DNA from: a virus | Strand: one strand, 5' to 3' | IMG/VR virus record: IMGVR_UViG_3300044655_001189 | Location: 6,114-70,113 of that record | Length of the DNA stretch: 64,000 bases | Shown here: piece after piece, positions 4,859-45,300 of the stretch | Numbering within the stretch: the first letter of the stretch is position 1 | Layout: each line of letters starts with the position of its first letter | Position numbers and translations under genes: made by a program | The notes under the pieces: model-generated | What the model saw: the letters and a program-made list of their open reading frames with translations, nothing else | Databases searched by the model: none | Told to the model about the DNA's origin: nothing

Positions 4859-5250
4859 AAGTTTTCTTTAATTATGGTTTGTAAAGTAATTAACTGTGAA
4901 GGTGAAAGGTTTAGGCGTTTATCCAGTATCACTGCTTTAAGCAATGCCATGTTACGTTCCGTAGGGCCATTCATTTCTTTCATTACTGAATTGGCAACTG
5001 TTATTGCCAATGGTGTGCTTTGATTACTCGAATGCATTGAAAGGTAACCTAACGCTTTGGTGCGACCTAAATTCAATGGCTCGTGCAATGAGCGTAACGG
5101 GTATTTGAACCACTTAGCATTGATGATGATAGTGGCTTCCTTTACGATACTGCCTAAGTAGCTGCGATTGGACAGTAGGGTATCGTATGTGATTCCTACA
5201 TGGTTGCAACAGGCTGTGATGGTATCGGAAATGGTTTCATTAAACGTCAT
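4855..5250 (-). CDS. hypothetical protein, possible DnaA C-terminal-like HTH
   Basis: ITACCNHVGITYDTLLSNR...YPLRSLHEPLNLGR loosely resembles DnaA domain IV; coupled to dnaB. Confidence 0.4.
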   Translation of the reverse strand: MTFNETISDTITACCNHVGITYDTLLSNRSYLGSIVKEATIIINAKWFKYPLRSLHEPLNLGRTKALGYLSMHSSNQSTPLAITVANSVMKEMNGPTERNMALLKAVILDKRLNLSPSQLITLQTIIKENL

Positions 5251-5608
5251 TTACGTTAGTGAAGCCAATAGCAGAACTGCCGTCAGTCAGAATCTCTGGA
5301 CGTACTACGCGGCCATTGGGCGTGACTACTTTGGTTTGAGTTACCAAGTAAAGTTTATTGTGTAGAATAATCGGTTTAACCGATTTTCTTCCCGTTTTAG
5401 GAAAGTCCACATCAATGCGAGCAATCTGCCCGTTTGGTTTAGACTTTATTGGTAACTGTAGTGCTCTAGCAATCTCTTTGATTTTGGCAAAGATTCGACC
5501 TGCTTTAGCTGGGTCTGGTTGCTCTGCAATTTTGGGTGCAGCACCATTGAGTTGACCCTTTAACTTGAGTAGGTCGGTATTGTTGGCAAGTGGTTTGTAG
5601 GTACGCAT
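5240..5608 (-). CDS. hypothetical basic protein
   Basis: ORF track. Start reassigned to ATG 5608 (MRTYKP), which directly follows a TCACTATC box. Confidence 0.6.
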   Translation of the reverse strand: MRTYKPLANNTDLLKLKGQLNGAAPKIAEQPDPAKAGRIFAKIKEIARALQLPIKSKPNGQIARIDVDFPKTGRKSVKPIILHNKLYLVTQTKVVTPNGRVVRPEILTDGSSAIGFTNVNDV

Positions 5609-5654
5609 GATAGTGATTATGTGGTTGTGGCAAAATTGCCGATGCAAATAAAGT

Positions 5655-5679
5655 AAAAGCTAAGGGATTCTCCGCTCAG
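5655..5679 (-). terminator. intrinsic terminator with GGA-GAA-TCC apex
   Basis: Minus strand CTGAGC-GGAGAATCC-CTTAG-CTTTT. Confidence 0.5.
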
Positions 5680-5703
5680 TATTTACCTGTGGTAAAAAAC
5701 AGA

Positions 5704-6411
5704 TTAGTTTTCGAAAGGGTGAACTACCTCTAAAGATGGTTTAACAGCAGTTACCTCGAACTTGCATGGTAAGTCATGCTTGTTGATGATTTGCTTGTCA
5801 GCGCGTCTGAAAGTCACAGTTTTACCGTAAAACAGAATGTCAATCTGCGCTTCTCCGTTTTTGTAGAACTCTGTTAGTGCATCGTACTGGTCTTGAGTTA
5901 CCATGTAGGTACGATTTGACAATAGCACAGAAGTGCAAGGTGTACCCACTTCTGGGTAACCTTTTGGGTTACGCTTGAATGCAGCAGCACCTTTAGGAAA
6001 TAGCATTTGAAGCATTGGTTTGCCAATGATGCCTTGTTTGTTCCAAGGTTGATTAAGCATAGCAACGATTTTGTTTACAAAGAAGTCACGTGCTTCTGGG
6101 TGCTGCAACAAGTCAGCAGGGTATTCTTTTACACCTGCAAGGTGGCACAATGCACGTAAGCGATTTTCGTTACCAGCAGTAAGTACGTAGTTTTCGTAAT
6201 TAGCATCAGCACGTGAAGAGTCGCGTTGTTTGAAGAATATACGTACCATAGGCAGTACACCTGTAGAGCCATCTTGGAATGTGTGGTTCTTCATTTCAAA
6301 GGTTACTAATAATGGCATAACCACGTACTCGTATTTTACACGAGCCTTGAAGTCTTGGTTAGACTTTGAATTAGAAACAGCAACAACTTGGGCAACAGAC
6401 GAATTGTTCAT
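5704..6411 (-). CDS. hypothetical protein
   Basis: 235-aa ORF with an A-rich leader. Confidence 0.75.
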   Translation of the reverse strand: MNNSSVAQVVAVSNSKSNQDFKARVKYEYVVMPLLVTFEMKNHTFQDGSTGVLPMVRIFFKQRDSSRADANYENYVLTAGNENRLRALCHLAGVKEYPADLLQHPEARDFFVNKIVAMLNQPWNKQGIIGKPMLQMLFPKGAAAFKRNPKGYPEVGTPCTSVLLSNRTYMVTQDQYDALTEFYKNGEAQIDILFYGKTVTFRRADKQIINKHDLPCKFEVTAVKPSLEVVHPFEN

Positions 6412-6449
6412 TTTGAATTGTTTTTATTGGCAGAATTGCCGGGTTAATT

Positions 6450-6475
6450 AAAAACCTATGGATTCTCCGATAGGG
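6450..6475 (-). terminator. intrinsic terminator with GGA-GAA-TCC apex
   Basis: Minus strand CCTATC-GGAGAATCC-ATAGG-TTTTT. Confidence 0.65.
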
Positions 6476-6495
6476 TAAGCGTAGTCGTATTAGAA

Positions 6496-6687
6496 TTACT
6501 GCATTGAAGCAATAAGCGCAATGTTTTTTTCACGTTGGAATGATGCGTCAACGTAATTAGGCTCGGTAGGCAGTGATATATCGTCCTCGGTTTCGTCAAA
6601 GATGGCAATAGCATCTTTGAGTGTAGAAGCTTCGATGTGAACAGTACCGTACACTTCCCATGTTACAGGGATTTTGAAAGTAGCCAT
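6496..6687 (-). CDS. small acidic phage protein (DpnD/PcfM-like pattern)
   Basis: FKIPVTWEVYGTVHIEASTLKDAIAIF pattern, common in small phage early proteins. Confidence 0.6.
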   Translation of the reverse strand: MATFKIPVTWEVYGTVHIEASTLKDAIAIFDETEDDISLPTEPNYVDASFQREKNIALIASMQ

Positions 6688-6692
6688 GATAA

Positions 6693-6881
6693 TTAGTCGT
6701 TAATGAAGCTTGCACCGTAAAAAAACAAGTTGATGTTTAGTACACCGTGTTCACATTCAATAGCAAATAATGCTCTATTGGAATCTCCATAAGAAAAGCT
6801 AATGAATGATAAGCCAAAGCGTTTGTCTGAAGGGTAAACGTAAAGCTGTAGTAGATTGAATTGGAAATCGCGTTCTTCCAT
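6693..6881 (-). CDS. hypothetical protein
   Basis: Start reassigned to ATG 6881 (MEERDF), downstream of the terminator. Confidence 0.55.
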   Translation of the reverse strand: MEERDFQFNLLQLYVYPSDKRFGLSFISFSYGDSNRALFAIECEHGVLNINLFFYGASFIND

Positions 6882-6909
6882 GATGGCGAGAATATAAGTG
6901 ATAGTGAAT

Positions 6910-6943
6910 AAAAAACCCATGCACAGATTCTCCATGCATGGGT
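6910..6943 (-). terminator. intrinsic terminator with GGA-GAA-TCT apex
   Basis: Minus strand ACCCATGCAT-GGAGAATCT-GTGCATGGGT-TTTTT. Confidence 0.75.
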
Positions 6944-6951
6944 GTAATGGC

Positions 6952-7380
6952 CTAAAGAAGGATTTTAAGCGTTTCTTCTACTCTAGGTAGCACATCAGCA
7001 CCTTTGACGTTGGATAGGTCAACGTAGAAGTCGGCTATGGGCTTAGGCAAGCCAACAGTTTTATCTTCGGAGCGAGGAAACGCTAATATGCGTCCTGTGT
7101 CGAAGTTAGCTGCGTAAAGGATATGTATTCCTGGGGCGGCTAATGTGTTAATGACTAAGCTCTCTGGACGTTGTGGACAAGCATCGCTTTCTTGGTCAAC
7201 AAGTAAGCTAAACACTCGTAGATGAAAGTTAGCAGGTTTTTCTTTGTGCCTACGCAAGTTGCGCTCGGCTTCTTTACGATTGTAAGTGGGCGAAAGCGGT
7301 TTGACGTTAGCAATAAGATTAAAAGCATCAGCTGGTTCGATGATGCGCAATGCAGCAGGTACTAGGGCTTTTGTGGCCAT
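6952..7380 (-). CDS. hypothetical protein
   Basis: ORF track; likely start at ATG 7380 (MATKAL). Confidence 0.65.
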   Translation of the reverse strand: MATKALVPAALRIIEPADAFNLIANVKPLSPTYNRKEAERNLRRHKEKPANFHLRVFSLLVDQESDACPQRPESLVINTLAAPGIHILYAANFDTGRILAFPRSEDKTVGLPKPIADFYVDLSNVKGADVLPRVEETLKILL

Positions 7381-7469
7381 TGTAATAGGTATTTTGTACT
7401 GTCGTGGCAAAATTGCCAATGGTTCACGGTTGGGGTCAACGCACTATACCGTGTAATTGCGTAAATAGA

Positions 7470-7625
7470 TTAGCCTTTCAGCCATTTCTTGAGGTTGTGC
7501 TGTACAATCAGTACGTGACCTAAGTCGCTGCGTTTTCGCTTTGGCTGCTTGAGTAGATACTGAATTTCAGCATTTACAGAAGCTAACCGTTTTTCCAGTA
7601 GCATTGTTTCGCGTGGATTGGGCAT
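7470..7625 (-). CDS. small hypothetical protein (51 aa)
   Basis: Manual translation MPNPRETMLLEKRLASVNAEIQYLLKQPKRKRSDLGHVLIVQHNLKKWLKG; fills an operon gap. Confidence 0.55.
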   Translation of the reverse strand: MPNPRETMLLEKRLASVNAEIQYLLKQPKRKRSDLGHVLIVQHNLKKWLKG

Positions 7626-7652
7626 GGCTTGGTGAATTTGGGTTAAAAATAA

Positions 7653-7907
7653 TTACAGAACGTCAAAGTCCATGTTAGGGTCACTAACGCAGTCGAAGCA
7701 ATACACATCATTGTGGGGAATACTGCATCCACAGTCGGTGCATTCGCTTTTGGTGTTAGGACACCCTTTCTCGTGGAGAGGTGTGCCGTTAACGACCATT
7801 GCAACACATTGGCTGCATTGGACGGTAATGAAAGCGCCATCATGCTTGGATTTGTCGAAGCCTAAATCAATAAGTTGTTCAACGTGCATAGCTAAACCTA
7901 ATTTCAT
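7653..7907 (-). CDS. small Cys-rich zinc-binding protein
   Basis: CSQC...HEKGC...CTDC...CFDC. Confidence 0.65.
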   Translation of the reverse strand: MKLGLAMHVEQLIDLGFDKSKHDGAFITVQCSQCVAMVVNGTPLHEKGCPNTKSECTDCGCSIPHNDVYCFDCVSDPNMDFDVL

Positions 7908-8068
7908 GGCTTTACGAATAGAGGACGTTCGTGACTATCCTCGCATACTTGGCGGCACCATGCAAGTGCTTGGCCTGTTGGGAAGTGTTGTTTCCAGATG
8001 GCTTGAGCAAGTGCCATACGGTATTTGCGCCCGTACCAACGCTTTCTTAGATTGAGTGAATTATTCAT
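7904..8068 (-). CDS. small hypothetical protein (54 aa)
   Basis: Manual translation MNNSLNLRKRWYGRKYRMALAQAIWKQHFPTGQALAWCRQVCEDSHERPLFVKP; ATGA overlap with the next gene. Confidence 0.6.
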   Translation of the reverse strand: MNNSLNLRKRWYGRKYRMALAQAIWKQHFPTGQALAWCRQVCEDSHERPLFVKP

Positions 8069-8144
8069 TACTTAACCCGATTCGCTTTTGCTGTTTTCTT
8101 GGCTGTACACGGGTAATACAGTTGCGGTGAATGATAGTGATTGG

Positions 8145-8618
8145 TTAAATGAATTTGACTAAGGCGATACTGGATATGCTAGTAGGGTCGTAGTCGTAAG
8201 CGAGTGACATTAAAGTGTGCAGGGTAATACCACTGGTGGTGGCATCATCTACAAACAGAATGTGTTTATGTGCAAGTCGTTCTGGTTTGGCAAAGCGAAT
8301 TGTGCGCATAATAGATCTGGGCGTCCTTCTACCACCTAAACAGAAGCTTGCTGCATTACGAGAGCGAACAAGGCAATTTAAGGGCGTGTGACGGCCTTTG
8401 TAACCCATAACCAACGTAGTGATACTGTTGGTGGTGCCGACCTTGTGAGAGGGCACAGGAATGAGTATGGTGGGGTATTCGAGCGTGTCAAAGTACTGGT
8501 ACATTTCAGCACGAAAGAACTCGTAGTCGAACTGAGCACCATCTTTGAAATTCAGAAGCATACGCCTCATGTGGTTAGGCTTGCTGCCGAATGTGGTGTG
8601 TAAGCTGTCTATGTGCAT
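8145..8618 (-). CDS. type I phosphoribosyltransferase-fold protein (ComF-like)
   Basis: LIPVPSH and the PRPP-binding loop ILFVDDATTSGITL. Confidence 0.8.
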   Translation of the reverse strand: MHIDSLHTTFGSKPNHMRRMLLNFKDGAQFDYEFFRAEMYQYFDTLEYPTILIPVPSHKVGTTNSITTLVMGYKGRHTPLNCLVRSRNAASFCLGGRRTPRSIMRTIRFAKPERLAHKHILFVDDATTSGITLHTLMSLAYDYDPTSISSIALVKFI

Positions 8619-8620
8619 GA

Positions 8621-9160
8621 TTAGAAGTATCTGCTACGTTTGAGAGGATGAGTTTTGGAGAGAGCATCGAAGTATGGTTCTCCTGTAACGCGGTCTACCT
8701 CATTTTTGCAGAGTTGGTAGTAGTCAGAATCAGAAAGATGCGGATGGTGAGCGATATGATTGCTGTGCTCCGTTTTAGAACGGGTGACAGAATCATTAGT
8801 GCCAATCCAAGGCTTGTGACTGGATAGGCGCTGGCCGCAAATTAAACAGATACGTAATGTATTCGGCTCTTCAAACAAAGGAATGCGCTCAAGTTTATCC
8901 CATTCAGAAACAGGAATACCAACTTGAAAGCGTTTGTCAAGACTATCCCATTTGACCATCCGAAGCTTTTTTTCATCAGCATCTGGAAGTTTAATGAAGA
9001 TGCTATCTGGAAAGTCAGGGTGCTTGCGCCCATCATACATTAGAGCAAGATGCTCTAATTCACGGTTAACATCAAATAGCTTGGATAGAAGCTCAGCTTT
9101 ACGGACATCTGCATTGTGAACGGCTGAGTCAAGGCTGATATGGAAATGGGATTGTTCCAT
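8621..9160 (-). CDS. hypothetical protein
   Basis: 179-aa ORF with a CLIC...H...H possible Zn site. Confidence 0.65.
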   Translation of the reverse strand: MEQSHFHISLDSAVHNADVRKAELLSKLFDVNRELEHLALMYDGRKHPDFPDSIFIKLPDADEKKLRMVKWDSLDKRFQVGIPVSEWDKLERIPLFEEPNTLRICLICGQRLSSHKPWIGTNDSVTRSKTEHSNHIAHHPHLSDSDYYQLCKNEVDRVTGEPYFDALSKTHPLKRSRYF

Positions 9161-9242
9161 GGTTGTAGATGCAGCGTTGTGAACCCGTTAGGGCAAGGCC
9201 ATTACGCTGCGGCCTTTGGTTGGTTAAGGGATAGTGAAAGAT

Positions 9243-9596
9243 TTAATGTGCATTACGACACGCTTGTAGTAAGCGTGTTGCATAAGGCAGTGCGTGGTAT
9301 TCACGCAGAAATTCCTCGGACAGTTGGCATCTGTGTACTGCCGTATATCCGATTGGTATAACCTCCAGAACACTTGTGATTATGTCCGCTTTAATCAGGG
9401 CTTGCAATATCCCTTCGTTTTCGGAGTAGTTCTTTATTATGGCTTGGTCAACATCTACAAAGCGGTCTATTACTACCGTTGCGGTCATAAAGTCCTCCCC
9501 TGTGGACTCTTCGTAAAGAGTAATATCCGTCAGGTGACGGTAGGTATCGCGGTACATGACAGCGATACAGGCGGTGTTTAAAAAGGTAATTTTCAT
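9243..9596 (-). CDS. hypothetical phage protein
   Basis: IIKNYSENEGILQALIKADII motif, a pattern I recognise from small phage proteins. Confidence 0.65.
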   Translation of the reverse strand: MKITFLNTACIAVMYRDTYRHLTDITLYEESTGEDFMTATVVIDRFVDVDQAIIKNYSENEGILQALIKADIITSVLEVIPIGYTAVHRCQLSEEFLREYHALPYATRLLQACRNAH

Positions 9597-9734
9597 TCGT
9601 TATGGTGTTGCTCTGAAACCTACATTTGAGTAGGAACGCCAGCATCTAAGTTTTTGGTTATGCCAATATTGGCTTTGCTCCCCTTGTCACATCGCTGTGA
9701 CTAACGCTCTCAGAGCAAGGGGAATTACTACGTT

Positions 9735-10058
9735 TTAGTTAATTGGGCTTAATATCCAATTAGATGCATCGCAGAAGTGAGGGTTACGAATAATAGCATA
9801 TTGAAAATTCAATATATCTTGCGCAAGTCTTGGACATTGAATGCGTCTAGCTTGGCAGGTCATTAGACGAAGCATACGAAGGGCAGTAGCAATGTCGAAT
9901 TCGTTGTTGATACCTAAGTAGCATTTGTTGAATTCAATTGCAATGATGTCGTAAGCTATGCCTCGTTTGCCGCTACGATAGGCAGAAGTGGAGGCTTTGA
10001 GTTGTTTGCGTGTGTAGTTAACAATCTCAGGACGGTTGGCAAATGGTACGTGTTGCAT
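9735..10058 (-). CDS. hypothetical protein
   Basis: 107-aa ORF in the early operon. Confidence 0.6.
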   Translation of the reverse strand: MQHVPFANRPEIVNYTRKQLKASTSAYRSGKRGIAYDIIAIEFNKCYLGINNEFDIATALRMLRLMTCQARRIQCPRLAQDILNFQYAIIRNPHFCDASNWILSPIN

Positions 10059-10185
10059 TGGTAAGAGTATTAGGCACTGTTTGATGATAGTGAGGTTCCG
10101 ACACTACATTGGATTGCTCACTGGTGGCTACTGTCACAGCAGTCATAGCTCCCTATGCTTTGTTTCCGTGGCATAGGGATAGGCG

Positions 10186-10407
10186 TTAGCCTTTGAAGAG
10201 AATGCGGTCAAGACGCGCATACTTTTCTTCTTTGGTTAATAATTCGGTGTTGATTACACGGTCAACACTTAGGCCTGCTGCCACAGCATCAGCAATAATT
10301 GCTTCATGCTTGCGTGGTTTGCGAGGTGGCGTGGTCAGGGTTTTGCCATATAGTATGACAGGTTCTGAAACACAGGTAATAGTGGTAATTCTGGGTCGCT
10401 TAGCCAT
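10186..10407 (-). CDS. hypothetical basic protein
   Basis: 73-aa ORF directly downstream of the hammerhead. Confidence 0.6.
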   Translation of the reverse strand: MAKRPRITTITCVSEPVILYGKTLTTPPRKPRKHEAIIADAVAAGLSVDRVINTELLTKEEKYARLDRILFKG

Positions 10408-10431
10408 TTGATGGTTTATTAAGCTTTGACG

Positions 10432-10504
10432 GTGTCTGCCATCATCAGTAATCAGGAAACACCCTGACTAGATCCACAATGCTTCACAGCAGGTGGATTT
10501 CGGC
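10432..10504 (-). ncRNA. type II hammerhead ribozyme with loop I pseudoknot
   Basis: Minus strand GCC-GAAA-UCCAC..GUGGA-UC^-UAGUCAGG-GUGUUU-CCUGAUUA-CUGAUGA-U-GGC-AGACAC. The full CUGAUGA/GAAA/UH core and three stems are present, and loop GUGUUU pairs with 3' AGACAC. Predicted cut between 10471 and 10470. Confidence 0.9.
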
Positions 10505-10510
10505 TTTTAA

Positions 10511-10936
10511 TTAGTAACTGTTTAGAAGTTCTTGGTATTCAGCGTGTACAATGCAGTTACCACAGTATGTGTGACCGTTGGTGTGCGTGTACAATGGGCT
10601 GAATGAACCTCTGCGCTCACATGCATAGCAGCGCACTTCAACAGGACGATTAGGTATGTGAACATAACCAACTACCCTTGGCATTGGCCTTGGCACTGCC
10701 ACAATAGGAGCTGGCTTAGCCACAGGCTTTTCAAGTTGACCATCTGCTATGTAGAAAGCAGATACAGCTGCAACGAATAGCGCAAGGAAACAGGCAATGC
10801 CTAAGCAGACTGTTGACTGCACCATTGGTATTAGCTGGAATGAGCCAAGCGTGGCTATCCAAACTAAGGTTAGTGAGAAGGTTGGTGCGATAGCGGCAGC
10901 TATCACATTGCGAACAAAGAAATACGTTGCTTGCAT
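10511..10936 (-). CDS. membrane protein with C-terminal Zn finger
   Basis: Two hydrophobic helices, a Pro-rich linker, and CYAC...CGNC. Confidence 0.65.
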   Translation of the reverse strand: MQATYFFVRNVIAAAIAPTFSLTLVWIATLGSFQLIPMVQSTVCLGIACFLALFVAAVSAFYIADGQLEKPVAKPAPIVAVPRPMPRVVGYVHIPNRPVEVRCYACERRGSFSPLYTHTNGHTYCGNCIVHAEYQELLNSY

Positions 10937-11024
10937 TGTTACTGGTGACGGTGTTTAGGCAGTCGTCGGCTGAGAGTGATAGTGAGTGTGCTATGACTAC
11001 GCACTATCGGGTTATGGTCTAAAT

Positions 11025-11093
11025 CACGGACTTGGAACCGTGTTGCTTCGTATGAAGCAAGGCCTTACAAGGGATGTTCTCCCTTGTCCTCGG
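11025..11093 (-). ncRNA. twister-like ribozyme, P5-type permutation, copy A
   Basis: Minus strand CC-GAGG-ACAAGGGA(GAACA)UCCCUUGU^AA-G-GCC-UUGCUUC(AUAC)GAAGCAA-CACG-GUUCCAAGUC-CGUG. Twister UAA, GAGG, GCC and L4 GUNCCAAG elements are present; stems covary with copy B. Confidence 0.75.
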
Positions 11094-11096
11094 TAA

Positions 11097-11351
11097 TTAG
11101 ATGGCGCAATACAGGAACTGCAATGAGTGATTGTTCTGGGCACAGACCCAAAGCAATTGTTCAATAGAGAATTCTTGCAACATGAACCATCGGTTGTCAG
11201 TCCGTGGCACATGAATGTGTGCTGTGTATCTGGCATCAGAGCGAGCCAGACCAAACTTCTCAGGGGTTTGCAATTCAAACCACTGTGAAACGTGGGTAAC
11301 ATTTAAGTCCTTGTCGTTACAAGGGCCTTGAGCAACAAAATGAAAGCGCAT
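11097..11351 (-). CDS. hypothetical protein (flanked by two twister-like RNAs)
   Basis: 84-aa ORF. Confidence 0.6.
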   Translation of the reverse strand: MRFHFVAQGPCNDKDLNVTHVSQWFELQTPEKFGLARSDARYTAHIHVPRTDNRWFMLQEFSIEQLLWVCAQNNHSLQFLYCAI

Positions 11352-11433
11352 GGTTTATCAATACCTATTCTTGGCTCGTAAGGATTTGAACGAGTTGCGT
11401 GGGTGATAGTGAAAGCCTCACTACGTGTTGATT

Positions 11434-11500
11434 ACTGGACTTGGAACCAGTCTGCCAATGCAGGGCCTTACAACCCACCACTACGGTGGGCTGTCCTCGG
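11434..11500 (-). ncRNA. twister-like ribozyme, P5-type permutation, copy B
   Basis: Minus strand CC-GAGG-ACAGCCCACC(GUAGU)GGUGGGUUGU^AA-G-GCC-CUGC(AUUG)GCAG-ACUG-GUUCCAAGUC-CAGU. Unpaired core identical to copy A, with different stems. Confidence 0.75.
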
Positions 11501-11926
11501 TTAATTGTTATTAGCCATATCAGTGTAGTACTGAATGATGCGGCTTTCTAAGCGATGGAAATGACCTTTGTTGCTTACTACATCAGCGAGGTCTGTCATG
11601 ACCATAGATTTGCCATCAGGTAATGGAAGCGTAGCTTTGACAACGATTAAATCAAAAGCATTAACTTCTCCTTCTGACATACTAGCTAAGGCAGCTTGTT
11701 GCAAAGAATGGAAGGACGTTTGTGGAGCACGATTCTTACGCTGTATCAACGTGTATAGCCTGCGTGCTGCTTGTATCTCGTAGTAAGCTGATACCAACGT
11801 GTCGGCCACTCCTAACTTGTAGGATGTAACCTTCACCTGACCATAACGAGGCGTGAACTTGTAAACAAGCGTTTTGCCATCTAATGCTACTACTCTTAAC
11901 TCATGGGTAACTGATGCGTTTGCCAT
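11501..11926 (-). CDS. hypothetical protein
   Basis: 141-aa ORF, first gene of the ribozyme-rich cluster. Confidence 0.65.
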   Translation of the reverse strand: MANASVTHELRVVALDGKTLVYKFTPRYGQVKVTSYKLGVADTLVSAYYEIQAARRLYTLIQRKNRAPQTSFHSLQQAALASMSEGEVNAFDLIVVKATLPLPDGKSMVMTDLADVVSNKGHFHRLESRIIQYYTDMANNN

Positions 11927-12502
11927 TTCTTACTGGGATGCTCTATAAACTCTTGCGAGAGGTCAAGCATCGAAACCTTTTGATTCATCGCACAGCAATA
12001 GGGTTACGCCACTACAGCGCATTACCTACTACCATGCAATTAAATTTGCTTTAACGAAAGGAAAGCTTTAGCTTTCGCACACGCGGATATTTACCACATA
12101 AGTAATGATACAACCAATATCAGATTGGATAATCACCGCTATTCAAGACATTACCATCATCGACAATACATCGGCTTGGTGATAGTGACCCTTCGGAAAC
12201 CCACGCTATACCTACGATTGATGCAATCAAATGTAATCAACCATGATACAGATAGCATAATAATAACTACTACTAATAGTATCTATATATATATATGTGT
12301 GCGAGAAAGATTTTGAATTGTATGTGTGAAATAATCACAGACTATATATCCAAAAAAAGGTGATGGGGGGGATAAACGGAAATGACGAATGGTACGGGGG
12401 TTGGTGGGATGTGTCCCTCCACAGAAGATACTCTTATATCCACGGGTAATACCCTTATGTATTCTGTAATGGTGTTACTCTAGTAGAAGAGCTTAGAACT
12501 CT

Positions 12503-12709
12503 TTATTTGATTTGGTCTTTAAGTGCTTTCTCTATGTTCCTACATGCTTTACAATCTGGGTTATCGCATAGGCTACAGTCGTCTAGGTTTTGCAGGAGTA
12601 AACCTTTGGCCACACAATACGTGAACATGACTGTATGATTTGGTGTAATAGGTTTGGCCATTAGGGACTTCATGAATGAGATCAGCTTCTCTTCTGTTAA
12701 CCTGTCCAT
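12503..12709 (-). CDS. small Cys-rich protein, paralogous to the C-terminus of 13862..14365
   Basis: LTEEKLISF...AKP...LCDNPDCKACRNIEKALKDQ. Confidence 0.6.
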   Translation of the reverse strand: MDRLTEEKLISFMKSLMAKPITPNHTVMFTYCVAKGLLLQNLDDCSLCDNPDCKACRNIEKALKDQIK

Positions 12710-12729
12710 TGCTTTTTAGTTTGAATCGT

Positions 12730-13092
12730 TTAATATAAACTTGCTATTTTTTCATTAATTCCATAATCAAGTAAGATGTATTTCTTGCCTTTTACCCCCC
12801 AATTTTGGGGATTACGTAAATCGCAGTTATCGAAATTAAATTCAAGAACTTTTGATTTAATACGTCTGATTACTAGGATTGGTATTGATTCAACGGCAGC
12901 ATATCTCTTCTGACATACAACACCCATGAACATCCATTTCAGTTCTGCTAATGGTGCTATATGCTTGTATTTATCCCAAATTCTTTTTTCATTAAGTCCT
13001 TGTAAATAACCTTTTCTACCTATAGGAATCTTGATAACTACATCATTAAATAGAATCACAAATCTCGTTGAATGTTTAAATGAAATCATCAT
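12730..13092 (-). CDS. minimal protein-kinase/APH-fold protein
   Basis: VVIKIP (catalytic Lys), conserved Glu in NEKRIW, DLRNPQNWG catalytic loop, LLDYG metal loop. Confidence 0.6.
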   Translation of the reverse strand: MMISFKHSTRFVILFNDVVIKIPIGRKGYLQGLNEKRIWDKYKHIAPLAELKWMFMGVVCQKRYAAVESIPILVIRRIKSKVLEFNFDNCDLRNPQNWGVKGKKYILLDYGINEKIASLY

Positions 13093-13288
13093 TTCACTTC
13101 GTGTATGTCTTTATAGAACAACCTCTGCTGCTTAACAGTAAATAGGAGTACGTGCACTGGTGTAGGTTCAATCACTTCTTTGCATACATGTGGTTCGTAT
13201 GCTACGATAGGGCAAAGTAAACAGCTAAGGTAGTAGGTAAGGAATAGGGTTTTCATTTTAGATTTATTTATAGTTTCTATGGATTGAA

Positions 13289-13801
13289 TTATTTATTCCA
13301 ATGATTATTTTCTTTCTCCCAACTAAATGTTAAGTCTTGAGTTTTGTCATTATAGTACTTACCGACAAAGTCACTTTTAAAAGCACTGCCTGTGTTTTCA
13401 AATAAAGTCAAGGTTTTCACCTTAATCTCAGGATAATTCTCAAAAATCCATTCAGTCAAGAAGTTATAGTTTCCTCCACGAATAACTCCTGCTTCAACTA
13501 ACAATAAAGTTTTGTCATTGAATCCGTGGTCATGAGTAAAAAAAGCATACACTAACTCCCGAATAAAATCTGAGTCCCAAGTCTGGTCAGGATAAGGCAC
13601 ATCAACTGAGAACCCATCTGCAATCTCTCCTTTGTAAGATAGGTTATGCCTAATAATCTGACCTACAATGCTAGAGTAATCACTAGAAACAGTAACTACT
13701 ATAGTATTGCTTGCATTAAAACCTTGCTCTAACACTTCAAAAGATAAGCTTTTTATTAAAGCTAATTCTACTTCTATTGGTATTAAATGTTCTTCTCTCA
13801 T
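13289..13801 (-). CDS. divergent phosphoribosyltransferase-fold protein
   Basis: TLLLVEAGVIRGGNY resembles a PRPP loop; VKTLTLF...SDFVG...FSWE resembles the XPRT/HPRT C-terminus. Confidence 0.5.
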   Translation of the reverse strand: MREEHLIPIEVELALIKSLSFEVLEQGFNASNTIVVTVSSDYSSIVGQIIRHNLSYKGEIADGFSVDVPYPDQTWDSDFIRELVYAFFTHDHGFNDKTLLLVEAGVIRGGNYNFLTEWIFENYPEIKVKTLTLFENTGSAFKSDFVGKYYNDKTQDLTFSWEKENNHWNK

Positions 13802-13861
13802 GATTCCTCTATTCTGGGTTCATTGAGCCGCCCAATGCTATATCGTGTATGTATATAAGAA

Positions 13862-14365
13862 TCATTTGCATTGTTCTTTGAGTGCATCTTCCAATCCCCT
13901 GCAGTTTTTGCAGTCTGAGTTATTGCACAGGTTAAATTGTTCGGATTGATATACGATGCCTTGGTCTATACATCCCGTAATTAGAATCATTGGTTTGGGT
14001 GCATCGGGTTTGGCCGTAATGTCTTGGAGGAATGACATCAGTTTCTCTACGGTCAGTTCACCTTCCACCGAACCGTATGGTGCTTTCTTATCCTCAATCT
14101 GATGGATAATGCCTTGACCTTGTTCTAAATTCTCAATATGCTGCTTGAGGGTCATACCATCAGGAACATCTTTGAGGTCGATTACTTTTTTATTGTTTGT
14201 TACATCTGGTTGAAAATGTGTACAACGACATTGACACCCTGCTAAGTGCTTTGAATTAACGAACCAACTAGTGCACCAGCCACTTGTAGTGCTATGTTCT
14301 TTCAATGTATGCCCACAAACGCATTCTGCGTCATTAGAATTGATTGCTTTTTTCTTGTCTGTCAT
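13862..14365 (-). CDS. Cys-rich multi-domain protein
   Basis: N-terminal CVCGH..EH...C...CQCRCTHF; C-terminal domain paralogous to 12503..12709. Confidence 0.65.
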   Translation of the reverse strand: MTDKKKAINSNDAECVCGHTLKEHSTTSGWCTSWFVNSKHLAGCQCRCTHFQPDVTNNKKVIDLKDVPDGMTLKQHIENLEQGQGIIHQIEDKKAPYGSVEGELTVEKLMSFLQDITAKPDAPKPMILITGCIDQGIVYQSEQFNLCNNSDCKNCRGLEDALKEQCK

Positions 14366-14817
14366 GATTTCTATTGATTAGTGTTTCTGTATCGTGTATG
14401 TGTATAAGCATCCCTTCCCTGTCATGTTAGACAGAGTTGCCAGAAGCTTGGTTCGAAAGCTATTGGCACGCTACATGTATCTCTTGACATCCCTGTTGGT
14501 GCTTGACTGTCCTCTCGATAAACTATCCTTTCGGTAGCATGACGTGACCAAGTTGACGGATGCTAAGTCAGAGCTTGGATTTGTGAGAGAGCGTGAGAAC
14601 TGTAACTGGTAACTACTCCGAGGTGGTTTGGACGTCTATCGTTTCAGTCCAGGGGTCAGAGTTTTAGAGCCACCCCTATTGTGTCATGGTACTGGTAGAA
14701 ATGAGAATCCCCCTAAGAAGCGACCACTCTTCTTTCGGGGGATTTCTTTTCGCTTGGATCTTGTAAACCCGTAGCTAAAGGTCTTTGGTGTGCAGGAGGT
14801 CGTTTGCTGCTATGGCA

Positions 14818-39349: not shown

Positions 39350-42300
39350 ATGGATGAAGAAATGTTGCAACAGTTACTTGCCGAGCAAGCTGCTCAAGAA
39401 GGACAAGTACAATCTCAAGGACAACCTGTTGCTGCACAGGTAGCCCAACCTACTCAAGCGGTGGGTACACAAATAAGTCCAATGACTAACCCTTTTCTAT
39501 CCCCACAAAGGAAGGAGAGGGTTTTGTCTAATACATGGATGGACCATGTCGTTGACGACCCTATCAGTTCTGCTAAGGGTACACCTGATGAAGAGTCTGT
39601 TCGTTCCTTAAGCGATGAAGAGATAGCACAGCGCTTAGAGTTCTTTGCCAATCCTTCTAGCAATCCACAATGGATGGAGGAAATGAAAAAAGACTCCGTA
39701 GGTTTTGATAGAGCGCGTAATGCTTCGATTGAAGAAGCTGCGCGTAGAGCAAATGAAAAAACTGGCGAACAGAAAGACCCTAATGATTTCTGGAAGGAAT
39801 ACAATGGTCAGTATGATACTGAACCTATGGGTAAAAAAGAACAGGACAAGCGCAAACTTGATACCTACTCTGCCAAGATGAAAGAGCAAGGCTCTTCTGA
39901 TGAAGAAGTCGGAAACTTAGAATCTATGTGGAATGAATTAAAGAAAGCTAAAACAGGGGTAGATTTAATACCTCATGCTTTAATTAACGGCTTGACAGGG
40001 GTAGTAGAACAGGGCCATGATTTATACTTACATGGCGTTTCGTTAATAGCTGGTTTTACTCCGAGGGAAACCTTAACCTATAAAGCCGTAATGATGGGTG
40101 GAGCCACCGATAAGTTTATGGAAACAGGTGACCGCAAAGACTTACAGGCAGATAAGTATGACCGTTTTAGAGCGAGTTTAACCGAATACATGAATCAGGA
40201 AAATGAAAGAGTAGGTGCATTACCTACAAAAACATTTATTGCTTCTGCAAAAAAAGATGATTTCGTAGGGTCTTTGGTTGCAGGTTTTGGGGGTACTATG
40301 GGTCTTGTACCATCTGCTATTGTTGGCGTTGGAACAATGGGATGGGGCATGGAACCATATATGGCAGGTATGGCAGAAGCCGATAAGGTTACCAACTCTC
40401 GGTTAGCCACAGGAAAAGAAATAGCTGATGCATATCGTGATGGTGACAACGACCAACTTATGTCATGGACAACTAGCATGATCGTTGGTTTTACCGAAAA
40501 ACTAGGTTTGAAAAAATTAGGAAAAAGCATAGAGGAAGCGTTTAGCAGTAAAACATTAAAGGATAAAGCAATTCGATTCCTAAGTGATTCTGGCATCCAA
40601 GGTGCTACTGAAACATTTCAAGGCGGTATAGAACACGTTGGTACGGCTTACAATGAAATCAAATTAGCCAATCCTGAAATGAGTGATGCGGAAGCTATGG
40701 CTAGAGCGGTCAAGGAAGGGGCATTATGGTACGGCTCTGGCGAAGCATTTGAAACATTTGCTACTACTGCATTAGGCGTATCATACATGACTGGTGCTTC
40801 ACATGTTGCAGGTAAAGCGTGGAGAAAAGCTACTGAAACTCAAGAGCAAAAACTAGCTGCTAAACTTGACGACCCAAATGTATCAGAAGCTAGTAAGACA
40901 ATCCTTCGTGACAAGTTTAATCAGTTAAGACAACAAGCATCTGCTGAGTACCAACAAGAGCGAACCATTTTCAAATCATTATCTCAAGAAGAGCAAACAG
41001 AACTAGGTTCTTTAGCGAAAACAATTAAAGTGCAAGAAGAGATATTAGCTGAACAAGACCTTGATGATGATGCAAAACAAATTGCAGAACAAAGAATAGG
41101 TGAAACATTAGCTCGTATAGATGCAATTAAAGCGCCTATCAAAGAGCAACTATTAGAGAAGGATAAAGAGAAGCTTCGTAGCATGGGAGTTTATACTGTA
41201 CCAATGGTTGATGGTGTACTAGACCCGACTGCTAAAACACAACTTCATACAGAAGAAGAACAAAAAATTGCTGCAAAAGCCATTGACGAGATTGTTCAGA
41301 CAGGCATAAAAGAGAAGTTGCCTGCGAAACAAATAGCTGCAAACATAGAAGCAGCTGGTCACATGGTAGGTGATGGAATATTGTTCACTACTCAAGAGTA
41401 TGTGGAAATGGCTACGACTAAAGCATTGCCATCACTGACAGAAGCATTTGACGGGAAAGTAACTGCAAAAGAAGTTTCTAATACTGATACGACTACTACA
41501 ACCGAATCTACATCTGAATCTACGGATGATACACTCAAGCCGTTTACAGAGTTAGATGCTAGAAATGATGAACTGAATACCTATTTTGATGAAAGGAAAC
41601 GTATAGACGAGATTTATGAATCAGACTGGGATGGTTTATCTGAGGATGAAGCTGATGAACACCGAAATGCCCTAATAGCAAATGAAGAACAACGAGATAT
41701 TCTATTTGAAAAGTACGCTTCTCCGAAAGAAAAAAAGGAATACGAAAGATTAGTGGCTAAAGAAAAATCCACATTTGAAAATCTAAAAAACAGAGTTGGA
41801 CTTGGAGAAACACGCTATCAGAGGTATCGTAAAGCCAACAATTACAAAGAGTCTGTAATGGACAGGCTATATGATATGACACCTGCTCGTGCCACATCAA
41901 CTGAAAGCACAACAGAAGCTACTCCAACAGCAACAGAGCCAGTAGCAGTTACTCCAACTCCAACTGAAAAAGAATTAAGAGATAATATTGTAATAGCTGA
42001 TATTGAAAAAAGAAGAAAAGAAGCTTTAGCTGCCAATGTTAAATTGACTGAATTAACAGGTGGAGCTATAGGCGGAGAAAAAGATTTTGCTGACCAACTC
42101 AATGCTAAATTCGATGCGGAAATAGATGCTGTAACATCAAGTCAGTCTACATCAAAAGCTGATGAAGTAATGGCTGCTGCCAAAGCTGCTATTGAAAGAG
42201 AGCGCGAGGTAGATGATTTACCTTTTGGGGCAAGTGGGAATGATGTTTTTGAAAGTGATAAGGGCAATAAAGAAGGTGATAAAAAGGGTGATACAGTTTC

Positions 42301-45300
42301 CGAATCAAATAAGGAAAGTGAGGCTACGCCTACTGCCAGTGAAGATTCTAAGGCTAAATCCGAATCCAAGTCCGAGTCAAATAAAAAAGCTGAACCTGTA
42401 GTTAAAAAGAAAGCACCTGCTAAGAAAGTTTCCAAACCTAAAGCACCTGCGAAACCTAAAGCTGCAAAGAAGCCTAAAACCACAAAGAAACCTACGACCA
42501 AGCAAAAAGAAGCTGCCCCAACTGTAACGGAAGAAGTTGCACCAGTAACTGAATTACCTACTGATCCAGAAGCGCGCAAAGCAGCCATCATAGCGCGTAA
42601 AGCAGAGATATTTAAAAGCATTAAAGACCGTTGGTTACCTGATAAAGAAAATCAAACATTTAACATCATAGCCGCTGGACCTGAAGAGAATTTAGCTGAA
42701 ATGAAAAAGGATGTTGATGCTATTATTGAATTGGCGAAGTTGAGTATAGAGGAAATGGGAATGACTCTTCAAGAATTTGTGGATGAAATGGTGGTAGCCT
42801 TTGGAAAAAAATTGCCAAACATCACACAGCTTGCTACTGATGTTTACAATAGCGTAAGTCTAGGTTCTGATACAGTAAGGAATGAAGTTGATGTATTGAT
42901 TGACGAGTTTCTGAATGCTGAACCAACAATAGAAACTGAATCGGGTCAGGTGTTGCCTGTAGGTGAAAATCCAGAGCAGCGCACATTACGCTCTTCTATT
43001 TTGGCAATAGCAGATAGAGCTATGCTCGCAGGTGGAGAATGGTTACGCGAAAAAGACTTTCAGAAGATTGGGTCAAAAGGTAGAATGAGATACTTCTTTG
43101 ACAATCCCAAAGCGTATATCGTTATGAATGCCCTTGATGGTTATTCAAGGAATTTGAAGGGCTACTCATTCATGAAAACTCTTCTGACCAAAGACGAAGC
43201 AATGAACATCATGCAGAATTTCGTTGAGGAAATTGACAAGATGGAAGAGCGTACTGGCTTTAAGCTAGACGGTAAAAAAATCAAAGAGCCTAATTATGGT
43301 GATGTCAATACGGTTGTTCAAGGTTTCTTTAAGGAATTTGAAGCTGCTTGGAAAGATAAAGACCCTGAGAGCTATGCAATCTTTGACAAGTATTCAAAGC
43401 TTATAGCTGGAATACCTAGCATTAAACCATCATACGCAATGGCAGGGCCAAATGAATGGTCAGACCTTGGGTTGAAACGCCTTGTGACGGGATTGTTCAG
43501 TGAAGATGGAATGCTATTAAATCCTGATGTTATTACCCAAACTATACAAGGTATTGCTGCTAGTGTGCCACGCGGTGGAGGTAATAAAGGATTCATCGCA
43601 GCCATGCGTAAAGTGGCCTATGGAGCAGAAGGAGAGCAGCAAGTTATAGCTATGCGAATGCTTGACAGAATTGGCGCTTTAGTTGACCTTGATTCAGCGC
43701 AGATAAACAATAGCGGTGAGCTTAAAGCTATCTTCAACACGTTAGCAAATATGGGTACTGACCAAATTGTAGTGAGCGTATTTGGTAGTGATGGCATGGT
43801 GCGCAGGGAAATAATGAATGTCGCCATTTCCGCCAAAGAATTAGTTTCAAATCTGGTAGGAAAGCTAGACACATACCTTACTCAAGCAAGGGCTGTGAGT
43901 GCGTTTAATTCATTGATACGTGAGTATAAAAACATCAGCAAAGAAGTCACCCATCAAATTGCAAATCAAGGAGCACTTACCCCAGAACAAGATATTGACT
44001 ATGCAAAACGCTTATTGAATTTATACCATGAACGAATCATAAAACCGTATGGTGGGCTATACAATGTAGACAATAGCTATGTAGATGGAGTGGTGAAATC
44101 GCTAAGCATGAAAAATTCTACTAAACCAGTATGGGTTCAAGCTGCAGGGATGATTCAAGTGTTGGACAATAGCAATGTTCGAGATAAATTAAGCAATGGC
44201 AAAGTAGTCGATGTATTGTCAGAGTCCAGCAGTTACTTCAATTTAATTTCACAATCCATTGTAAACCGTCAGGCAAATGCAACTACATGGAGAAATGCTG
44301 ATGGTGAGAATGTAACTGCACAAGGGCCTAAAGACCACGTTACTTTGGTTACAGATTCTATGTTGATACCTACAGAGGAAGGTGGTACTACACCAGCACA
44401 GAAGATGCTGAAACTACCTTTTTACAAAAACAATCCTATTCTAAAATTTTGGAATAAGGGAACTACAACAGGTCGGCAATTATGGACAGAAGGTAACTTC
44501 AAAAAGCAATTTAGTATAGAGCTGGATAAGATGGGTTCCTCTGGCGTATTAGCGGATAACCTGATGGCATTCTTTGACAACACAAAGGAGAGCTACAAGC
44601 ACATGTATATGCTCAATGGTGACCGTATGAGAAGATATGTGTTCGATGCTCCACTTCTTTCGTTTCAAGAAATTGGCGATCACTTTGGGTTGACTAATGG
44701 TAAGTTCGACCCTACTACAGCTATTGTAAAACAGTTTGAGCAACGAGCTGCAAATGCATTAGCAGGTGGTGATGTGCAGCTTAATGCGGAAGGTTTGGAT
44801 AGGCTCAATTCTACATACCACATTAAATTCAAAATTGAGAATGGAAAGTTTGTAGCTGATGGCGAATTAACCAATAGTGCTAGACAAGCAAACATCAATG
44901 CACTAACTGAAAAATTCAGAGAATTGAATAAGCATCCTGTCCAGTATGAAGGAATGCAACTACGGTATATGGATGCAGTACTGGCAATGGCAGCTAAAAA
45001 TCCTAAGCTGGCTGAACTACTAAATCCTAACCAAGCCTATGATTCACGGTTGCGTAAACTTGCTGCGCTGTATGAAGGAAACAACAGTATCAATGAGCTT
45101 GCATTAAGTGATGTCTTGGTTGGTGACTTGATTAACCTACGTCCGGGCGCGAAGGGAATGAAGGATGCTAAGAGTCAATCAACGGGTGGTATGAATGTGT
45201 CAGCTACAGTCGGCCCATTCTACATCGTTACATTAAAAGAGTTCCCTGGAATGGACTCTGGTTCATTTATGAATGCGCACATGAGTGAAGCTGCAGGTCA

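What the first reader, a model, noticed from the sequence alone, without database searches (positions are those of the whole stretch)
11025..11500. Twister-like ribozyme variant with P2 reduced to about one base pair
Seen: two copies share identical unpaired blocks CCGAGG, GUAAGGCC and GGUUCCAAGUCC, while P1, P3 and P4 differ in sequence and length yet remain paired. Established: canonical twister has UAA, then a 3-4 bp P2, then GCC, with L4 GUCCCAAGC and GAGG. Here only one G lies between UAA and GCC, and the AAGGCC and CAAGUCC blocks recall twister-sister. Inference: a compact structural variant or intermediate that standard models could miss.
Basis: partly seen in the sequence, partly recalled or inferred. 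Interest (0 to 1): 0.8.

Follow-up and report, generated by a model that had tools for sequence, protein, structure and literature searches.

The report
Short-stem twister ribozymes in lake phage
Two small self-cutting RNAs of the known twister family, in an uncommon form with one stem cut to two base pairs, sit right after the stop codons of two small genes of a lake-water phage and probably chop its long messenger RNA into single-gene pieces.

Summary
They share the blocks CCGAGG, GUAAGGCC and GGUUCCAAGUCC, while P1, P3 and P4 differ yet stay paired.

Both copies are type-P5 twister ribozymes. Rfam Twister-P5 scores them 32.6 and 32.8 bits, under the 37.6 cut-off. The twister-sister model gives nothing.

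A model built only from seven relatives in other contigs finds exactly these two sites in the window (E 2e-15 and 1e-12).

They belong to a rare phage subclass: 17 unique sequences among the 83 unique type-P5 twisters I collected.
- P2 has only two Watson-Crick pairs. The second one covaries (C-G 12, U-A 4, U.G 1).
- The L4 dinucleotide is always GU.
- Only 2 of 17 pass the Rfam cut-off. One that passes, L010 at 40.1 bits, has the same core blocks as the window.

So this is a divergent variant of a known class, not a new class. Published assays already report that P2 imperfections are tolerated.

With a nearby hammerhead, each ribozyme directly follows a stop codon, which suggests intercistronic mRNA processing. 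Cleavage itself is untested.

The parts
11024..11094 (-). Twister copy 1, type P5. Layout: A11094; P2 5' strand C11093-C11092; GAGG 11091-11088; P1 11087-11080 with 11074-11067; predicted cleavage between U11067 and A11066; GGCC 11064-11061; P3 11060-11054 with 11049-11043; P4 11042-11038 with 11029-11025; L4 UUCCAAGU 11037-11030; trailing A11024.
   Evidence: Sequence. Fold. Rfam Twister-P5 32.6 bits, E 1.4e-4. Leave-out model R2 65.3 bits, E 2.3e-15. The cleavage site is inferred from the family's U^AA, not measured.
11433..11501 (-). Twister copy 2, type P5. Layout: A11501, which is the last base of the stop codon 11503-11501; C11500-C11499; GAGG 11498-11495; P1 11494-11485 with 11479-11470; predicted cleavage between U11470 and A11469; GGCC 11467-11464; P3 11463-11460 with 11455-11452; P4 11451-11447 with 11438-11434; L4 11446-11439; trailing A11433.
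   Evidence: Sequence. Fold. Rfam Twister-P5 32.8 bits, E 1.2e-4. R2 55.2 bits, E 1e-12.
10430..10505 (-). Hammerhead type II ribozyme, the third self-cleaver of the same minus-strand transcript. It starts 5 nt after the stop of ORF 10936..10511 and ends 22 nt before the ATG at 10407.
   Evidence: Rfam RF02276, 42.8 bits against a gathering score of 37. ORF coordinates.
11501..11926 (-). Upstream ORF of 141 aa with no family match. Its stop codon overlaps the first base of twister copy 2.
11097..11351 (-). ORF of 84 aa lying between the two twisters. Its stop is 2 nt before copy 1. The sister phage L002 has an unrelated ORF at this position.
10511..10936 (-). ORF of 141 aa between twister copy 1 and the hammerhead. 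It is 81% identical to its counterpart in L002.

Best explanation
Both elements are self-cleaving twister ribozymes of the circularly permuted type P5. P1 is closed by a loop, an optional P3 hairpin is present, and the ends are open where P5 would be. They are encoded on the minus strand of a tailed phage from lake water.

They belong to a minor phage subclass with these features:
- P2 has only two Watson-Crick pairs, G-C and R-Y.
- Only four bases (G-R-C-C) lie between UAA and P3.
- The L4 loop reads UUCCAAGU or UCCCAAGU.

Expected chemistry (inferred from the family, not shown here):
- L4 docks on GAGG(A/G) to form T1.
- L4 docks on the bases after P2 to form T2.
- The guanine of L1 acts as general base and the A after the scissile bond as general acid.
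- The chain is cut between U and A of UAA (U11067^A11066 and U11470^A11469), leaving a 2',3'-cyclic phosphate and a 5'-OH.

Because of the P5 permutation, the upstream gene keeps its stop codon and ends in the P1 hairpin. The downstream fragment starts with the P3 and P4 hairpins.

Together with the hammerhead at 10505..10430, the ribozymes would cut a polycistronic early-region transcript into single-gene mRNAs. This function is inferred from position only.
For: Family match:
- Rfam Twister-P5 is the only family matching either site, end to end over model positions 1-58 (E about 1e-4).
- The blocks that the Rfam Twister-P5 consensus line prints in capitals, GAGG, UAA and GU.CCAAG.C, are all present.

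Covariation in 11 subclass sequences:
- 97.2% of cells are paired, against 73.9% in shuffles.
- 14 of 23 pairs show double changes.
- 0 of 500 shuffles reach the observed values.
- The slid controls fall to 26-51% paired.

Pseudoknots:
- T1 covaries: GGA/UCC 66, GGG/CCC 12, GGC/GCC 1 and CGA/UCG 1 among 83 unique sequences.
- In the ordinary relatives, T2 covaries at an offset equal to the P2 length: AC/GU 22, CC/GG 16, GC/GC 12, GC/GU 3.

Independent detection:
- The leave-out model finds only these two sites in the window.
- The fuller model R1, trained on ten subclass sequences including both window copies, reports no other site in the whole 70-kb record.
- A sibling with the same core (L010) passes the Rfam cut-off at 40.1 bits.

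Published assay (McKinley 2024, PMC11662667, section 32 read in full): about 94% of more than 2600 natural twisters cleaved. P2 imperfections and length did not affect cleavage. G.U wobbles in the two-pair pseudoknot were tolerated.

Position:
- Each window ribozyme starts -1 to +5 nt after a stop codon.
- Across 83 unique relatives, 49 have a 50-codon or longer frame ending within -2..+6 nt of GAGG. At random positions of the same strands the figure is 713 of 16600, or 4.3%.
Against: - No cleavage assay exists and no RNA data. No RNA run holds the stretch.
- Both copies fall below Rfam's curated cut-off.
- P2 is two pairs, or one, against a consensus of four. A structural paper cited in the review PMC5408937 suggested that changing the number of P2 pairs could disturb the active site.
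- If T2 uses the two bases next to P3 (CC), it carries a C/U mismatch in 11 of 11 sequences. The published assay found non-wobble mismatches in that pseudoknot harmful.
- The processing role rests on gene position alone.
Confidence: 0.82

Rival explanations
1. A new ribozyme class, or an evolutionary intermediate between twister and twister-sister, that only resembles twister.
For: - P2 is far shorter than the consensus.
- The expected GC of T2 is replaced (GGCC against UGCg-GC in the Rfam consensus).
- 15 of 17 subclass members miss the Twister-P5 cut-off.
Against: - The twister-sister model gives no match at E<=10.
- All twister core bases and the order of helices are kept.
- T1 covaries as in twister.
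- The same phage contigs and their relatives hold a continuum of P2 lengths (2, 3 and 4 pairs) with otherwise identical cores.
- Two subclass members pass the Twister-P5 cut-off.
Confidence: 0.04
2. Catalytically dead twister relics kept for another use. They could serve as stable hairpins that end or protect the upstream mRNA, or as protein-binding sites.
For: - P2 is reduced and T2 is possibly mismatched.
- Only one strong intrinsic terminator was found on the minus strand in 5000-14500, so 3'-end elements would be useful.
- No expression or cleavage data exist.
Against: - Seventeen unique sequences from 13 contigs have fully diverged stems yet keep every unpaired catalytic-core base and compensate every helix. 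A mere hairpin would not need that.
- T1 switches GGA/UCC to GGG/CCC in concert, 10 against 7 within the subclass.
Confidence: 0.1
3. A chance resemblance or a simple duplicated intergenic repeat.
For: The two copies lie 400 nt apart in one operon and share 30 identical bases.
Against: - The stems differ in sequence and length between the copies, so this is not a plain duplication.
- E-values are 1e-12 to 1e-15 with a model trained elsewhere.
- Relatives occur in 12 other contigs.
Confidence: 0.01

Closest known systems
Twister ribozyme, type P5 (Rfam RF02684)
   Same: - The helices run in the same order: P2 strand, GAGG, P1 hairpin, U^AA, P2 strand, T2 bases, optional P3, P4 with L4.
- The core bases are the same.
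- T1 complementarity is kept.
- It occurs in phage and metagenome contexts beside hammerhead and pistol ribozymes.
   Different: - P2 has two Watson-Crick pairs against four in the model consensus and 3-4 in 55 of the 66 other unique relatives.
- Four bases, not 5-6, lie between UAA and P3.
- The T2 partner is ambiguous.
- Scores of 32.6 and 32.8 bits fall below the 37.6 cut-off.
Common phage type-P5 twisters with GAGGA / UUCCAAGN cores (for example the arrays in loci L034, L051 and L067)
   Same: - Identical GAGGACA...UGUAA and GGUUCCAAG blocks.
- They sit directly after stop codons.
- Several copies occur per operon.
   Different: - They have a 3-bp P2 (UGC/GCA, AUC/GAU, ACC/GGU) and a perfectly complementary T2.
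- 14 of 17 pass the Rfam cut-off, against 2 of 17 for the short subclass.
Twister-sister ribozyme (Rfam RF02681)
   Same: There is a vague likeness of loop sequences, as the review PMC5408937 also says of twister in general.
   Different: - The model gives no match.
- By the review passages read, twister-sister lacks pseudoknots and cuts the opposite strand. Here T1 covaries.
Natural twisters with 'imperfections' tested by CHiTA (McKinley et al. 2024, PMC11662667)
   Same: The study shows that natural twisters with deletions or mismatches in P2 still cleave, so a short P2 is compatible with activity.
   Different: - The main text does not mention type P5 or phage. A 'find' for both terms gave 0 occurrences.
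- The P2 length range tested is in a supplementary figure that I could not open.

Membership tests
Twister ribozyme (type P5) | Conserved L1 bases: GAGG on the 3' side, U-A-A with the scissile U^A on the 5' side | tested here: met
   Both copies carry GAGG and UGU-AA. They align to the model's GAGgG and UAA.
Twister ribozyme (type P5) | L4 loop G-U-N-C-C-A-A-G-N-C closing P4 | tested here: met
   GGUUCCAAGUCC is present in both copies. It is invariant in 11 of 11 subclass sequences apart from the T1 base.
Twister ribozyme (type P5) | Pseudoknot T1 between L1 (GGN) and L4 (NCC) | tested here: met
   GGA/UCC is complementary in both copies. Covariation across 83 unique relatives: GGA/UCC 66, GGG/CCC 12, GGC/GCC 1, CGA/UCG 1; 3 do not fit.
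Twister ribozyme (type P5) | Pseudoknot T2: two bases after P2 pair with the two bulged L4 bases | tested here: inconclusive
   - With bases 2-3 (RC) against GU: G.U 8, A-U 3 and C-G 11 of 11. But base 2 is then taken from P2.
- With bases 3-4 (CC): C/U unpaired 11 of 11, C-G 11 of 11.
Twister ribozyme (type P5) | P2 helix between L1 and L2 (consensus four Watson-Crick pairs) | tested here: inconclusive
   - A helix is present and covaries, but it has only two pairs: C-G 17 of 17 at the first; C-G 12, U-A 4, U.G 1 at the second.
- The third layer is C opposite A in 16 of 17.
- Published assays report that P2 length does not affect cleavage (PMC11662667, section 32).
Twister ribozyme (type P5) | P1 and P4 helices, and the type-P5 permutation (P1 closed, ends after P4 and before the P2 strand) | tested here: met
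   - P1 has 5 of 7 and P4 3 of 5 pairs with double changes.
- No conserved pairing of the flanks (P5) was seen. This was checked by eye on the flanks printed.
Twister ribozyme (type P5) | Score at or above Rfam's curated gathering cut-off (an operational feature, not a structural one) | tested here: not met
   32.6 and 32.8 bits against 37.6. Siblings with the same core: L010 40.1 and L093 38.2 pass. 15 of 17 fail.
Twister ribozyme (type P5) | Site-specific self-cleavage giving a 2',3'-cyclic phosphate and a 5'-OH | not testable with these tools
   No RNA run holds the stretch. Needs a bench assay.
Twister-sister ribozyme | Match to the family's covariance model | tested here: not met
   RF02681: 0 matches at E<=10 in the 70-kb virus record, 2 candidates scored.
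Twister-sister ribozyme | No pseudoknots; cleavage on the strand opposite to twister's (per review PMC5408937, passages read) | tested here: not met
   The T1 pseudoknot is complementary and covaries. The cleavage strand is not testable here.

The most novel reading that the evidence does not exclude
The short-P2 twisters may be a re-wired structural subclass. P2 is cut to two pairs, and its second purine is shared with, or handed over to, the T2 pseudoknot, possibly as a triple or a folding switch.

In addition:
- The 5' strand is fused to the stop codon of the upstream gene, so a terminating ribosome would gate folding and cleavage.
- The conserved cores may act as joints at which phages swap gene cassettes. 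Homology between this phage and its sister L002 ends exactly at the 5' base of both twisters, and the gene between them is replaced.
Probability: 0.15. Interest if true: 0.6.

Novelty: new variant of a known kind. Interest (0 to 1): 0.3.

Why it matters
For annotation, the curated Twister-P5 threshold misses this subclass almost entirely (15 of 17). Ribozyme counts in phage genomes are therefore underestimates, and a subclass model recovers the missing sites cleanly.

For RNA structure, a natural and conserved twister with a two-pair P2 and an ambiguous T2 tests how much spacing the double-pseudoknot fold needs.

For phage biology, three ribozymes in 1.1 kb each abut a stop codon. This adds to the case that phages use self-cleavers to cut polycistronic mRNAs. 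The role has been suggested in reviews (PMC6765202, passages read) but not demonstrated.

It does not reveal a new catalytic class.

Tried and rejected
- Twister-sister kinship: rejected.
- Exact-block scans of viral contigs gave true relatives only in L002 and L010. The other loci, L001, L003-L009 and L011-L024, were chance matches with no ribozyme fold, judged by eye, and were dropped.
- The first genome-contig scan with the subclass pattern gave 0 hits. The broader pattern gave 9 loci, none of the short subclass.
- P5 pairing of the flanks: inspected by eye in the output. There is a 6-of-7 match for copy 1 only. It is absent in copy 2 and in the L002 ortholog, so it was rejected.
- A(-3) as a functional invariant: A in 11 of 11 at first, then U in L096 and G in L092:6008. 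It is often the last base of the stop codon, so no role is claimed.
- RNA evidence: no RNA holder listed.
- Laying contigs of four lake-water DNA runs showed identical sequence, with no variants to use.
- Neighbouring ORFs: no PHROG or Pfam function.
- Literature:
  - The original twister paper is not held, so the consensus was taken from the Rfam alignment and from passages of the review PMC5408937.
  - Searches for phage, crAss, stop-codon or P2-variant twister reports found no description of a two-pair-P2 type-P5 subclass, nor of stop-codon fusion.
  - PMC8501958 (passages read) concerns P1/L1 variants only.
  - Supplements are closed. Supplementary Figure S12 of PMC11662667 may already show two-pair P2 examples.
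- I could not decide between the two T2 registers.
- Ten of the 66 non-subclass sequences had no clean P2/T2 parse in my script. They are counted as unclear.

Full report
**What is there**

The window is bases 6114-70113 of a 70,113-bp virus record. On the minus strand, two about 70-nt elements share the blocks A-CC-GAGG-ACA, UGUAAGGCC and GGUUCCAAGUCC. Copy 1 is 11094..11024 and copy 2 is 11501..11433.

Between the blocks lie three hairpins that differ between the copies but all pair:
- P1 is 8 bp in copy 1 and 10 bp in copy 2.
- P3 is 7 bp and 4 bp.
- P4 is 5 bp in each, with three different pairs.

Single-sequence folds give exactly these helices plus a two-pair helix CC/GG. The z-scores are -4.68 and -3.43.

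**Scoring against known families**

At gathering thresholds the only Rfam hit in the window is a type II hammerhead at 10505..10430, with 42.8 bits.

With E-value thresholds, both copies match Twister-P5 (RF02684) over the whole model:
- Scores are 32.6 and 32.8 bits, against a cut-off of 37.6.
- E is about 1e-4 on 1.5 kb and about 0.005 on the whole window.

The printed alignment shows where score is lost. One position is deleted from each P2 strand, there is a non-standard outer pair, and the P3 hairpin is treated as an insertion.

Twister-sister (RF02681) gives no match at E<=10 in the whole record.

**Relatives**

Exact-block scans of IMG/VR found true relatives only in a sister phage (L002, two copies) and in L010.

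Freeing the stretch between UAA and P4 gave 52 loci with 72 copies. This is a large phage family of type-P5 twisters with the same GAGGACA...UGUAA and GGUUCCAAGN cores, often several per operon.

Further scans added more members:
- metagenome contigs: L076-L079
- viral contigs with a relaxed P1 closure: L091-L096
- genome contigs: 9 loci, mostly Bacteroidota MAGs

A covariance model (R1) aligned 90 + 16 hits. After removing duplicates, 83 unique sequences could be parsed.

**Anatomy of the family**

In the 66 sequences outside the subclass:
- P2 is 3 pairs in 45, 4 pairs in 10, 2 pairs in 1, and unclear in 10.
- The two bases right after P2 are complementary to the two L4 bases after CCAA: AC/GU 22, CC/GG 16, GC/GC 12, GC/GU 3, others 3.

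This is clear covariation for pseudoknot T2. T1 also covaries: GGA/UCC 66, GGG/CCC 12, GGC/GCC 1, CGA/UCG 1.

**The subclass**

Seventeen unique sequences from 13 contigs have only G-R-C-C between UAA and P3, or between UAA and the linker. These include the two window copies.

In an 11-sequence alignment:
- 97.2% of cells pair, against 73.9% in shuffles.
- 14 of 23 pairs show double changes.
- 0 of 500 shuffles reach the observed values.
- The slid controls drop to 26-51% paired.

So the fold is under selection.

The base 2 nt before GAGG always pairs with the second base after UAA: C-G 12, U-A 4, U.G 1. This supports a second P2 pair. The third layer is C opposite A in 16 of 17.

The L4 dinucleotide is GU in all 17. 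It is complementary to bases 2-3 (RC: G.U or A-U plus C-G). It is not complementary to bases 3-4 (CC: C/U in 11 of 11).

Two readings follow:
- P2 has two pairs and T2 has one Watson-Crick pair next to a conserved C/U.
- P2 has one pair and T2 is intact.

Published tolerance data favour the second: wobbles are tolerated and other mismatches are harmful in the two-pair pseudoknot (PMC11662667, section 32 read; equating their PK1 with T2 is my inference). A shared or switching purine is possible. I could not resolve this.

**Is it ordinary?**

A model built from seven subclass sequences, none from this phage or L002, finds the two window sites and nothing else in 64 kb with filters off. The E-values are 2e-15 and 1e-12. 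R1, whose ten training sequences include both window copies, reports no other site in the whole record.

Against Rfam's cut-off:
- Only L010 (40.1 bits) and L093 (38.2 bits) of the 17 subclass members pass. The rest score 29.8-37.1 or give no hit.
- In four loci of the ordinary form, 14 of 17 copies pass.

So the subclass is real, coherent and systematically under-called. It is still a twister:
- same core
- same permutation
- same pseudoknot T1
- a continuum of P2 lengths
- two members above the curated threshold

On the literature:
- The review PMC5408937 (passages read) gives P2 as four pairs and relays a suggestion that changing that number might disturb the active site.
- The 2024 high-throughput study found that P2 length and imperfections have no effect on cleavage. 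That removes most of the surprise.
- My six literature searches found no description of this subclass.
- Supplements were closed, and the original twister paper is not held.

**Context and likely role**

The phage has a terminase large subunit, a portal and a DnaB-like helicase. Its terminase is about 24% identical to those of crAss-like phages of Bacteroides and Flavobacterium. The stretch occurs, identical in sequence, in contigs from lake-water and freshwater DNA metagenomes.

The ribozymes lie in a minus-strand block of small genes with no known function. The order along the transcript is:
1. ORF 141 aa, whose stop overlaps the first base of copy 2
2. twister copy 2
3. ORF 84 aa, whose stop is 2 nt before copy 1
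4. twister copy 1
5. ORF 141 aa
6. hammerhead, starting 5 nt after that ORF's stop
7. ORF 73 aa

Across the 83 unique relatives, 49 have an open frame of 50 codons or more whose stop ends -2..+6 nt from GAGG. At random positions the figure is 4.3%. Often the stop codon supplies bases of the P2 strand (UAG-CA, UGA-U, UAA-CC).

The P5 permutation leaves the stop codon and the P1 hairpin on the upstream fragment, so translation can still terminate normally after the cut. I infer intercistronic processing that gives each cistron hairpin-capped ends. Ribosome gating of folding is a further possibility. None of this is shown.

**Verdict**

- The element is a divergent variant of a known ribozyme class.
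- It is useful for annotation and mildly interesting for structure.
- It is not a new class.

Noticed in passing
window 10430-10505 (-): A type II hammerhead ribozyme (42.8 bits) lies 5 nt after the stop of ORF 10936..10511 and 22 nt before the next ATG. That makes three self-cleavers within 1.1 kb of one transcript.
   Followed up: partly
window 11094 and 11501; loci L002-L096: The stop codon of the upstream gene abuts or overlaps the ribozyme's 5' (P2) strand in 49 of 83 unique phage type-P5 twisters. At random positions the figure is 4.3%. The stop codon often supplies P2 bases (UAG-CA, UGA-U, UAA-CC). My literature searches did not find this described.
   Followed up: partly
window 11095-11363 and 11502-11724 against L002: DNA homology with the sister phage L002 stops exactly at the first base of each twister (11094 and 11501). 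The 84-aa ORF between the twisters is replaced by an unrelated 104-aa ORF, while the flanking ORFs are 81-84% identical. This looks like ribozyme-bounded gene cassettes.
   Followed up: partly
window minus strand at 5607, 6898, 8131, 9228, 10084, 10976, 11403, 12179: The 10-mer TCACTATCAY recurs in the intergenic spaces of the minus-strand gene block. There are 15 hits in the window against 4.6 expected. One lies about 20-40 nt downstream of each twister, and one directly follows the terminator at 6943-6915. It could be a promoter or a processing signal.
   Followed up: partly
window 39350-52279 (+): A giant ORF of 4309 aa has no PHROG or Pfam match. The phage's terminase is distantly crAss-like.
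   Followed up: no
L093:2011-2074; L095:3782-4616; L048:9508-9567: Other ribozymes sit beside short-P2 twisters in relatives: a pistol (54.8 bits) about 650 nt upstream in L093; two hammerhead II copies above the cut-off and one below it in L095; and a sub-threshold hammerhead II in L048.
   Followed up: no
L010:8244-8332 (-); L092:1182-1262 (-): Odd relatives were seen. L010 has a second, low-scoring copy (22.9 bits) with a 3-bp P2 but a non-complementary T2 (CU against GU). L092:1182 reads UAA-GGAAC, with an A/A third layer followed by a normal AC/GU T2. These may be links between the 3-bp form and the short form.
   Followed up: no
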